The notes under the pieces: generated by a model
Databases searched by the model: none
The model's input: only the letters and a program-made list of their open reading frames with translations
What the model was told of the DNA's origin: nothing
Assembly: GCA_000165425.1 (NCBI GenBank)
Contig: CT868071.1
Coordinates: 118,787-138,786 of the forward strand
Direction of reading: 5' to 3'
DNA: 20,000 nucleotides
DNA from: Paramecium tetraurelia
Lineage: Eukaryota
Part shown: in pieces, positions 6,800 to 9,455 of the stretch
How positions within the stretch are numbered: position 1 is the stretch's first letter
Layout of the letters: each line of letters begins with the position of its first letter
Translations under genes and position numbers: made by a program

Positions 6800-7429
6800 T
6801 CATTAGTCAACCTCATTTAACACAAAATCAATTTAATCAATTCTTTAGGCACTTTCATTTTGCATTTTTAAGATAAGTGAATCATCATTATCTTCATCTT
6901 ATTGCTTTTACTAAGCAATATTTCCTGAAGAAATTGATTTAATCATAACTTAAGTTTTCATCCTTCTAGTCATTTTTCTTTTCTCAAGGAGTTCGTCTTA
7001 AAAATTGAGAGATTCTGTAATTTATTTTTCAATATTTTATTACACTTTATCGTATTCTTGGAGCAGTTGATTCATATTGTGAGTTTGATTTACCTCATTG
7101 TTTTATAATTCTTATTAAATCTTCAATTCATTTGCCTGAGTTTTTTTATAAACACTAAATCTCATCTTTTCTTAAATTTTGGAACCTTATTCAGGTAAGG
7201 CAAGTACCTTTTATTTCTTTAACAACTATATAGTCTCAGGTCTGCTAATTAAAAATTAGATTTTCTCAAGAAAATACTCTCTCATAGCGCACTTCTAATT
7301 ATCAAATATTTAAACAAAATCTTAGTAAATTTCTAACATTTTATTTACATGCTCTAAATTATAAAGTTTTTCATGAAATCTGGCTTCTAGTTATAATAAA
7401 ATTTTTAATGTATTATTATCTATTACCAT
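6800..7429 (-). CDS. Hypothetical protein, 209 aa, intronless
   Basis: Continuous 210-codon code-6 ORF, MVIDNNTLKILLQLEARFHEK...DFVLNEVDQ*, with coiled-coil-like composition. Confidence 0.75.
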
Positions 7430-7810
7430 TTTAATTGTAAAATAATATTTTTATTATTTCTAATATTCAACATACTTAAATCAAATATAGATTAGATATT
7501 CAAACTATAATTCTTTTTATATAAATAGCCAATAACAGCATAACAAAATCTACAGAATAGTGAATCTACATACTTATTAGATATAGAATACTTGAAATTC
7601 TAATAGTTCTCTGACTTTAATTTGTAATTTAAATTTATTCCAAACCCTTATGATTGTTCTTTTGTCTCATTTACAAAAAACTAAAGTCTTATGTTATTTC
7701 GATGTGAATCCATGAGGAGGCACAATTCAAACTTCCGCTGTTTTAATCAAATTGATGAATTAAATTGGTAGATGTAAATGAAGGATTTATATATTAAATA
7801 CATAAAAATA

Positions 7811-8232
7811 TCAACCAAAAACTTCTAAGTCAGAATAAGTGATGTATAAAAACCCATCCTCGGGATCTTTTTTCTTCTCATATATATCTATTAATTTGAC
7901 ATCTATTTAAGCATTAAATTAATTATACCCTCAGGGAGAAGTTGATTACCAATATGAAAATATAAGGATTGCTTAGGAGATATTTACAAAGTGTTTTTTA
8001 AGGTATCTCTAAACTAAAGTATGCGAAAACCTTTTGTGACTAAATATCAATATGATTAAGATCTCACTTACAATGATTTATTTAATTATGGCATTTTAGA
8101 TTTAGGATGTTTCTCTAAAATGACAGGAATCATTTCAGGATGTTGACTTAATTTTTATTTACATCTCATTTGTCTCTCTTCCAGACTATTCAATTCCTTG
8201 TACGATTTAAAATTGACCGATGCTTAAAACAT
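7811..8232 (-). CDS. ATG8: ATG8/LC3/GABARAP-family protein (123 aa); needs a non-canonical first intron, otherwise a pseudogene
   Basis: MFQASVNFKSYKELNSLEERQMRCKQKLSQHPEMIPVILEKHPKSKMPQLNKSL/YLVTKG...SLYFHIGNQLLPE/DVKLIDIYEKKKDPEDGFLYITYSDLEVFG*. Canonical intron 7903-7928. Segment 8048-8071 (GT..TG) must also be removed. Confidence 0.88.
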
Positions 8233-8311
8233 AATTGTTCTTTTTAATAAATTAATTAATTTTCCAATAATCAAAAGAAATTTTATAAAATATACAATAA
8301 TGGAATAAATG

Positions 8312-9359
8312 TCATGAGTTTATTTCTTCAATTACATTAATTGACTTCAAATAATTAATTTGCTCCTAACTCAATTGGTATCTCTAACCGTTTTAATCCA
8401 AGACATAAGAACCATTTGAAATCAGATAGCCATTGCTATCCAATTCATATTGTTGAATCTATTAATAATCACTCCTTGAATCATCAAGGGTCTTTTCTGA
8501 TATGGCAGACATCTGGCATTTATCTAGGAAATAGTTTAATTAACTTACATTTATTATTAATTTGTTGTTTAATCGGACTAGCTGTGTTTATGGGAGCAAG
8601 TTCTGGTTTGATTTCTGCAACCATTTGCTCAACTATATTTATGTTATTAGGTGATATTGTTTAGCTGAGATAAGAGGAAACTTCCTCATTAAACTATTAA
8701 AACCTCTTTAGATCTTAGCTGATAAAATTTGATTATGGTGTAGATATTTGAGATTTTTTTATGCCTTAAACCATTTCTGTAATTGCATCTAATTAAGTCT
8801 ATATTTTAATTTCTGTCTTATTTGTACTTTCAAGTATACTCTTTTTTAATTTCTCCATCATCGATTGGGTGTAAACTTGTGTCTTCTATTCTTAATTGAT
8901 TATTAATAACTATAATTCTCCCATCTTCAATTCTAATTGCTTAATTTTATCCTTAATTTGAACATCGTTGTTTAGTTATCCAATCCCAGAATCATACAAT
9001 TATTTTACGCTTTATTCATTACTACTCATTCTATCATTTAAGGATTTTATTTAAATTTGAAATTGTTCGTTTAAAGTGTTTTACTCATATTGCAATTAGA
9101 TTACTTATAATTTTAGTTTATCGAAGAGCTATTCTTAAGGTTTCTAGGATTCAAAACTATCCTGTGTTTTACCTGAGGGTAGGTTCTGATATAATTTATT
9201 TCTTATATATACATTTACGAATCGAATCTAACTACATGAATTGTGTTTCACTGGTCCTCGATTTTCCTTACCGACTGATTGCTAACGGATTTCGGATGGG
9301 TAATAAGTTGGAACAACTGGTTTCATGGTTCTTGCATAATTAATTGGGCCAGAATTCAT
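8312..9359 (-). CDS. Hypothetical coiled-coil protein, 340 aa, with a C-terminal DxNG-repeat motif
   Basis: ATG 9359 (MNSGPINYARTMKP...), one intron 8524-8548, 341 codons, ending YELDSNGYLISNGSYVLDQNGQRYQLSQEQINYLKSINVIEEINS*. Confidence 0.78.
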
Positions 9360-9455
9360 TTTATATTATAATTAACGAATAGATGATATATGATTAAATA
9401 TATTCAAAATCAACGTATTTCCATTATCACCTATTATTAGTAAATAAGAATAATC

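What the first reader, a model, noticed from the sequence alone, without database searches (positions are those of the whole stretch)
8047..8071. ATG8 needs removal of a 24-nt segment with GT..TG ends that is also TA-bounded
Seen: the minus strand reads TCA TT[GTAAGTGAGATCTTAATCATATTG]A TAT TTA GTC. The donor GTAAGT is ideal, but the segment ends in TG rather than AG, and if retained it carries an in-frame TGA. The nearest usable AG acceptor (32-nt intron, or 28 nt from the second GT) shifts the frame and destroys the otherwise intact YLV...DGFLYITYS..FG. The same 24 nt, shifted by one base, can be excised between two TA dinucleotides (TTG|TAAG...TTGA|TAT) to give the same SLYLV. Inference, four options: a real GT-TG intron, a recent acceptor mutation (incipient pseudogene of a duplicated ATG8), a retained very short IES-like element (shorter than the usual ~26-bp minimum in P. 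aurelia, poor TAYAGYNR match), or an assembly error.
Basis: partly seen in the sequence, partly recalled or inferred. Interest (0 to 1): 0.7.

Follow-up and report, generated by a model that had tools for sequence, protein, structure and literature searches.

The report
Conserved GT-TG intron in Paramecium ATG8
A Paramecium autophagy gene can only make its protein by splicing a tiny intron that ends in TG instead of the near-universal AG, and this odd splice site has been kept through ancient genome duplications, which suggests a hidden class of rule-breaking introns that current annotations miss.

Summary
An RNA-seq contig matching the window at 506 of 506 letters lacks exactly 8048-8071. That junction cannot slide and differs from the TA-TA excision product. 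Both paralogues in the genome also end this intron in TTG, with an AG 8 nt downstream, although intron interiors have diverged and synonymous sites are saturated. Six more distant ATG8 paralogues have a normal GT..AG intron at the same place. Downstream exons are under strong purifying selection in the TG-spliced frame. None of 13 database proteins from four sister species carries the junction; two stop exactly at TG|A. It resembles human TG-AG tandem acceptors, but here TG is the only productive site: the AG gives an 89-aa frameshift product in all three paralogues. Likely mechanism (inferred): the downstream AG licenses spliceosome assembly and the TG is chosen at exon ligation. Limits: one RNA contig from one run, no isoform ratios, AG dependence untested. 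I found no report of this in ciliates, and two Paramecium pipelines keep only GT..AG junctions.

The parts
8072..8232 (-). ATG8 exon 1 (161 coding nt from the ATG, ends in phase 2)
   Evidence: Pfam ATG8 positions 2-34; RNA depth
8048..8071 (-). Intron 1, 24 nt, GT donor and non-canonical TG acceptor
   Evidence: left out exactly in RNA contig X20 record 5, 0 other letters; junction unique; TG end in both paralogues
8048..8049 (-). TG acceptor dinucleotide; with the next exon base it forms the TGA that stops the intron-retaining transcript
   Evidence: two other-species models stop at this codon
8040..8041 (-). Exonic AG 8 nt downstream of the TG (Leu56-Val57 codon border); putative helper or alternative acceptor, out of frame
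   Evidence: present in 3 of 3 TG-intron paralogues and absent at that place in 6 of 6 AG-intron paralogues; its use gives an 89-aa product
7929..8047 (-). ATG8 exon 2 (119 nt, begins one base before the Tyr-Leu-Val codons)
7903..7928 (-). Intron 2, 26 nt, canonical GT..AG (internal control)
   Evidence: left out in the same RNA contig
7811..7902 (-). ATG8 exon 3 coding part, ends in Phe-Gly and TGA

Best explanation
The segment is a genuine spliceosomal intron with GT..TG ends in a functional ATG8 gene of Paramecium (P. tetraurelia by the named proteins of its paralogues). SHOWN: the TG junction exists in RNA (one contig); TG is conserved in three whole-genome-duplication paralogues; only TG splicing gives a full ATG8. 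INFERRED: it works like a TG-AG tandem acceptor. The U2 spliceosome defines the intron using the AG 8 nt downstream (GT-to-AG span 31-32 nt, still inside the 20-34 nt range), probably through U2AF35, and then ligates at the upstream TG, which gives the typical 23-24 nt length. AG use or retention yields non-functional products, so ATG8 output from this subfamily depends on TG choice. My odds: real GT..TG intron about 0.92; dependence on the downstream AG about 0.6 of that.
For:: X20 contig of 506 nt over 7647-8202, 0 other letters, gaps of 24 at 8048 and 26 at 7903, word depth 19; stranded raw reads of X24 have depth 0 at 8048 against about 6-10 in exon bins; of 16 possible 24-nt deletions tested (starts 8040-8055), only 8048-8071 gives that product, so there is no microhomology; paralogues C380 and C91 have 23-nt GT..TTG introns followed by the same 12 exon bases; downstream of TG, pN 0.09-0.10 against pS 0.54-0.83; in the AG-spliced frame dN/dS is 3.4-5.5, so that frame is not selected; with any acceptor allowed, the best ATG8 model uses TG in 3 of 3 clade genes (best AG model 54.7 vs 103.2 bits, 50.6 vs 89.9, none for C91), while in 6 of 6 other paralogues an AG intron is best or within 0.6 bit; 0 of 13 proteins from P. 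octaurelia, pentaurelia, primaurelia and sonneborni and 0 of 3 P. tetraurelia models carry the junction; P0003 and P0018 stop after 7 intron codons, which under code 6 fixes TG|A; the four junction codons are identical in all three paralogues (background 31 of 75 same-residue codons; 1 of 8 other shared Leu codons); human TG acceptors always have an AG within 28 nt; IL21 intron 3 has the same 8-nt spacing. U2AF1, U2AF2 and RBM17 orthologues are listed for P. tetraurelia.
Against: RNA support is one assembled contig from one run, whose organism label (C) differs from the main holders (A); identity with the window rests on 0 mismatches over 506 and 164 nt, the latter across a retained intron. 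X24's 58-nt reads gave no spliced read at any of 3 introns, and X19 and X1 had no piece over this gene. Contigs drop minor isoforms, so AG use was neither seen nor excluded. Splicing of the two paralogues was not seen in RNA. DNA of other species was not seen; their TG is read from annotated proteins. The conserved AG could be plain codon preference (TTA is 50% of 125 Leu codons sampled), and the TG clade is a single lineage. TG's margin over neighbouring non-AG cuts in the model test is small (0.2-2.2 bits).
Confidence: 0.88

Rival explanations
1. Real GT..TG intron, but AG-independent: the tiny-intron spliceosome picks the 3' end mainly by distance from the donor or branch point and tolerates TTG as a sole, constitutive acceptor. 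The downstream AG is incidental.
For: Only the TG form is seen in the RNA contig. The AG product is useless in all three paralogues. TTA is the commonest Leu codon. Parada et al. report that 24% of human non-canonical sites are constitutive (passage).
Against: AG kept at +8 in 3 of 3 paralogues and in 3 of 3 informative other-species models (P0005, P0007, P0008), absent in 6 of 6 canonical paralogues. In humans TG was never found as a sole acceptor. Three P. octaurelia/P. sonneborni models only show that the AG exists, not that it is used.
Confidence: 0.3
2. Retained or inefficiently excised IES-like DNA element (TA-bounded, 8047-8070).
For: The shifted 24-mer is TA-bounded and its removal restores the frame; the same holds in the paralogues.
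Against: The RNA junction is the GT..TG product, not the TA-TA product. Sizes of 23-24 nt are below the abrupt 26-bp IES minimum. The segment is present in the somatic assembly at all three loci and lies where canonical introns lie in six other ATG8 genes. Sixteen runs from 7 studies (3 of the runs flagged as a possible source of the assembly) hold a share of 1.00 of 251 sampled words of the unspliced stretch.
Confidence: 0.02
3. Pseudogene or decaying duplicate after an acceptor mutation, with leaky splicing at TG.
For: No AG model gives a full ATG8; database models are truncated or split. Paramecium has many ATG8 genes (22 reported), so loss would be tolerated.
Against: The TG predates two duplications with saturated synonymous sites, yet exons 2-3 keep an open frame with 3 of 69 second-position against 22-33 of 69 third-position differences. 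The gene is transcribed and spliced, and the downstream half is conserved in four other species.
Confidence: 0.02
4. Assembly error at 8049, or a reverse-transcription or assembly artefact in the RNA contig.
For: Base 8049 was not read directly in DNA: the long X1 contig was not listed and X24 has no depth there. One RNA contig only.
Against: The same base is non-A in two other contigs and by inference in two other species. Sixteen runs hold a share of 1.00 of the sampled words. No direct repeat at the junction for template switching, and the cut uses the GT donor homologous to canonical ATG8 introns.
Confidence: 0.03

Closest known systems
TG-AG tandem 3' splice sites in U2 introns (Szafranski et al. 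2007, PMC2374985; GNAS, RYK, IL21 and others)
   Same: GT donor, TG acceptor, pyrimidine at -3 and purine at +1, an AG within 28 nt (8 nt here, as in IL21 intron 3), deep conservation, no known orthologue with AG in place of TG.
   Different: Ciliate, 23-24 nt intron with no room for a separate pyrimidine tract; TG is the only acceptor that gives a functional protein and appears to be the major form; the AG partner is out of frame and lies in conserved coding sequence; use of the AG was not shown here.
Canonical Paramecium tiny introns (GT..AG, 20-34 nt)
   Same: Length, strong GTA donor, position and phase shared with canonical introns of six other ATG8 paralogues; the 3n-length copy carries an in-frame stop, as the rule against translatable introns predicts (PMC11334263 passage).
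   Different: Ends in TTG; excluded by the GT..AG filters of TrUC (PMC5485702) and of Saudemont et al. (PMC5663052).
Paramecium internal eliminated sequences (IES)
   Same: A one-base-shifted reading is TA-bounded.
   Different: Too short, kept in somatic DNA, and the RNA junction does not match TA-TA excision.
ATG8/GABARAP/LC3 family (PF02991)
   Same: Full ubiquitin-like ATG8 sequence with C-terminal Gly after TG splicing.
   Different: A Paramecium subfamily of three paralogues, all mis-modelled in public annotation at this intron.

Membership tests
TG-AG tandem acceptor (U2-type GT-TG intron) | GT donor and TG 3' end used in mature RNA | tested here: met
   one RNA contig, gap 8048-8071, 0 other letters
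TG-AG tandem acceptor (U2-type GT-TG intron) | TG is genomic and invariant, not an error or a masked AG allele | tested here: met
   3 of 3 paralogues; stop position in P0003 and P0018; share 1.00 in 16 runs; base not read directly in DNA reads
TG-AG tandem acceptor (U2-type GT-TG intron) | AG within 28 nt; pyrimidine at -3, purine at +1 | tested here: met
   AG 8 nt downstream, TTG|A in all three paralogues
TG-AG tandem acceptor (U2-type GT-TG intron) | The AG is also used as an alternative acceptor | tested here: inconclusive
   no AG-spliced piece, but contigs drop minor forms; two P. octaurelia models (P0005, P0008) use this AG, with unknown read support
TG-AG tandem acceptor (U2-type GT-TG intron) | TG use depends on the neighbouring AG and on the U2 spliceosome | not testable with these tools
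   needs mutagenesis; U11/U12 reported absent and U2AF1 present in ciliates
Paramecium IES | Bounded by TA dinucleotides | tested here: met
   8047-8070 reading
Paramecium IES | At least 26 bp | tested here: not met
   24, 23 and 23 nt against the 26-bp cut-off
Paramecium IES | Removed from somatic DNA leaving one TA; RNA shows that junction | tested here: not met
   present in the assembly at three loci; RNA junction is the GT..TG product
ATG8 family | PF02991 domain across the protein and conserved C-terminal Gly | tested here: met
   exon hits, gap-free junction alignment to 4 outgroups, paralogue model P0006 70 bits over cut-off 27 and 112 PDB sequence matches
ATG8 family | Lipidation and role in autophagy | not testable with these tools
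   no functional data
Pseudogene | Relaxed selection or frame decay downstream of the lesion | tested here: not met
   pN 0.09-0.10 against pS 0.54-0.83

The most novel reading that the evidence does not exclude
The TG acceptor is an ancient, selected splicing bottleneck: Paramecium sets the level of this ATG8 subfamily by switching between the productive TG and the dead-end AG or retention (for example under starvation or autogamy). It is the first seen member of a wider set of non-AG introns in ciliates, hidden because pipelines keep only GT..AG junctions.
Probability: 0.3. Interest if true: 0.85.

Novelty: new variant of a known kind. Interest (0 to 1): 0.7.

Why it matters
Paramecium introns are treated as GT..AG, and the published pipelines I read enforce that, so a non-AG acceptor kept through two genome duplications is unexpected, and it explains why all 16 database models found for this subfamily are wrong at this spot. 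In human TG-AG tandems the question of how TG is chosen is open. Here the whole intron is 24 nt, the outcome is all-or-none for a protein, and the AG can be removed by a silent change in a species where transgenes and RNAi are routine, so the two-step model becomes directly testable. It also argues for an unfiltered re-mapping of Paramecium RNA-seq for more such introns.

Tried and rejected
Raw-read junction counting failed: run X24 has 58-nt reads and gave 0 spliced reads at 3 of 3 introns; X19 and X1 had no piece over the gene. A metagenome scan for the exon-1 motif gave 1 hit, a bacterial-looking chance match. A genome pattern search for the same splice context gave 11 hits against 3 for the reversed control; 3 are the ATG8 genes, 7 of the other 8 were inspected and none showed a frame that needs a TG cut, and 1 had no locus. 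The first three-way DNA alignment used one paralogue in the wrong orientation and was redone. The Pfam search of the genome found 7 matches and missed the window gene; I saw 10 ATG8-like loci against 22 reported, so the paralogue survey is partial, and one locus (L010) with a different intron layout was left out of the 9-gene model test. No P. caudatum, P. bursaria or Tetrahymena orthologue appeared in 3 protein searches, so the origin of the TG cannot be dated further back. Three look-ups in earlier scan notes returned nothing. Literature searches listed no report of GT-TG introns in Paramecium or other ciliates; the library lacks most subscription papers, and ParameciumDB curation and the supplements of PMC2374985, PMC5663052 and PMC5485702 were not seen. 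No structure was predicted for the spliced protein, so its fold rests on sequence alignment.

Full report
Setting. The window is G000:C88:118787-138786 in a 72.1-Mb, 697-contig genome with about 27% GC, ciliate code and tiny introns. The database models of the two paralogues described below are named Paramecium tetraurelia. The finding lies in a three-exon ATG8 gene on the minus strand: exon 1 8232-8072, intron 1 8071-8048, exon 2 8047-7929, intron 2 7928-7903, exon 3 7902-7811.

Observation. Intron 1 begins GTAAGT and ends TTG. Retained, it stops translation after 61 residues at a TGA built from the TG and the first exon base. The next AG, 8 nt further on, gives a frameshifted 89-residue product. 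Cutting at TG gives a 123-residue protein ending in Phe-Gly that aligns with no gap at the junction to 4 of 4 outgroup ATG8 proteins.

RNA. I laid four runs on 7500-8900. One RNA-seq contig (run X20, record 5, 506 nt, word depth 19) covers 7647-8202 with no mismatch and lacks 24 letters at 8048 and 26 at 7903. Of 16 possible 24-nt deletions around the site, only 8048-8071 gives that product; the TA-TA excision differs by one base. The other runs add little. X24's raw reads are 58 nt and show no spliced read at any of three introns, though they lie on one strand only and have depth 0 at 8048 against 6-10 in exon bins, which argues against much retention. X19 and X1 had no piece over the gene. 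X20 bears a different organism label from the main holders; I take it to be the same genotype because it matches at 506 of 506 and 164 of 164 letters, the latter across a retained intron.

Conservation in the genome. A DNA search found two paralogues, on C380 and C91. Both have a 23-nt intron at the same place that begins GTA and ends TTG, followed by the same 12 exon bases, while the intron interiors differ. C380 and C91 are 75-91% identical over long collinear blocks, as expected of the recent whole-genome duplication. The window shares several collinear, more diverged anchors with them, which I read as the intermediate duplication (inference). A review dates the recent duplication to between 20 and 320 million years and calls the margins large (PMC11334263, passages). 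Synonymous sites downstream of the TG are saturated between the window and the pair (pS 0.82-0.83) and at 0.54 within the pair, while pN is 0.09-0.10; read in the AG-spliced frame the ratio inverts (dN/dS 3.4-5.5). The TG has therefore outlasted neutral turnover and the TG frame is the one under selection. In a test that allowed any acceptor dinucleotide and scored models against an outgroup ATG8 profile, TG came first in 3 of 3 clade genes, by small margins over neighbouring non-AG cuts (0.2-2.2 bits) but by about 40-50 bits over any AG model. In 6 of 6 more distant paralogues a GT..AG intron at the homologous place was best or within 0.6 bit. The TG is thus derived from a canonical acceptor in one subfamily.

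Other species. Three protein searches and three cluster look-ups gave 13 distinct proteins (14 accessions) of this subfamily from P. octaurelia, P. pentaurelia, P. primaurelia and P. sonneborni, besides 3 P. tetraurelia models and 4 distant metagenome ATG8s. None of the 16 subfamily models has the junction. They retain the intron, start at a Met in exon 2, skip to a later AG, or use the AG at +8. P0003 (P. sonneborni) and P0018 (P. primaurelia) end after seven intron codons at residue 61, as the window's own model does; TGA is the only stop in this code, so their introns also end TG before an A. Their downstream halves are annotated as separate genes with neighbouring accessions on contigs of the same length (P0021, P0020). 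P0008 is the 89-residue AG product. This is inference from annotated proteins; I did not see those genomes, and I did not check that canonical ATG8 genes are modelled correctly in the same annotations.

Mechanism. The layout matches the TG-AG tandem acceptors of Szafranski et al. (PMC2374985; parts 1-4 of 6 read): TG with a pyrimidine before and a purine after, always with an AG within 28 nt; IL21 intron 3 has the same 8-nt spacing. They propose that an AG is needed early, through U2AF35, and that TG can be chosen at the second step. Here the GT-to-AG span is 31-32 nt, within the 20-34 nt range of Paramecium introns, and the GT-to-TG span is 23-24 nt, near the 25-nt median. The AG is present in 3 of 3 paralogues, is implied in 3 other-species models, and is absent at that place in 6 of 6 canonical paralogues. 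The four junction codons are identical in all three genes against a background of 31 of 75. This is suggestive only: TTA is half of Leu codons and the clade is one lineage. P. tetraurelia has U2AF1, U2AF2 and RBM17/SPF45 orthologues (supplementary rows) and ciliates lack U11/U12 (section read), so the major spliceosome is the likely actor. In the window's lineage the TG|A also supplies the stop that makes retention of a 3n intron visible to NMD, which may help keep it; this does not apply to the 23-nt copies. Whether the AG product is degraded is unclear, since its stop lies only about 95 nt before the normal one and NMD is weaker near gene ends (PMC8997360, passages). Shown: TG junction in RNA, conservation, selection on the TG frame. 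Inferred: AG dependence, U2AF role, any regulation.

Rivals. An IES is ruled out by the junction, by size (abrupt 26-bp minimum, PMC3464196 passages) and by its place at a canonical intron position. A pseudogene is ruled out by selection on exons 2-3. An assembly error would have to recur in three contigs and two other species, and 16 of 24 listed runs hold a share of 1.00 of 251 sampled words of 7000-9400. An AG-independent TG acceptor remains open at about 0.3.

Novelty. TG acceptors are known in animals, so this is a new variant of a known kind. What differs is a ciliate tiny intron in which TG is the only productive acceptor and has been kept across duplications and species. Seven searches (listings and abstract starts seen) gave no report of it. 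Two Paramecium studies state that they keep only GT..AG junctions (PMC5485702 and PMC5663052, passages), and a ciliate ATG8 survey does not mention it in the passages shown (PMC5244887). Also seen as passages only: PMC4176328, PMC12862383, PMC13685798, PMC4787833 (nothing relevant), PMC5663052 again. Curated ParameciumDB records and subscription papers were out of reach, so prior notice cannot be excluded.

Verdict. Real, conserved GT..TG intron (0.88 for the explanation as stated at its core); interest 0.7.

Noticed in passing
window 7811-7816 (-) against L012 and L013: The window's ATG8 ends exactly at the conserved Gly, so it should not need Atg4 trimming, while the C380 and C91 paralogues carry four more residues.
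   Followed up: no
window 8524-8548 (-): A 25-nt intron of the upstream gene is spliced in the X19 contig but retained in a 164-nt X20 contig.
   Followed up: no
window 8232-8345: The upstream gene's stop (about 8312) and its RNA depth end within about 100 nt of the ATG8 start codon, leaving very little room for a promoter.
   Followed up: no
window 7647-7828: The X20 contig runs to 7647 while X24 depth stops near 7800: a longer 3' UTR form or read-through is possible.
   Followed up: no
G000 C13, C21, C52, C59, C75, C180, C358, C682: Eight further matches to the splice-context pattern (3 in the reversed control); seven inspected look like chance.
   Followed up: partly
window 7922-7928 (-), L012, L013: Intron 2 begins with GT, one variable base and TAAT in all three paralogues, more conserved than the rest of that intron; in C91 the donor is the weaker GTG.
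   Followed up: no
L010 (G000:C672:184260-184445): An ATG8-like gene with a different intron layout (an intron earlier in the N-terminal part, none at the junction studied).
   Followed up: no
P0003 and P0004: P. sonneborni seems to keep two copies of the window's lineage, whereas searches found one in G000.
   Followed up: no
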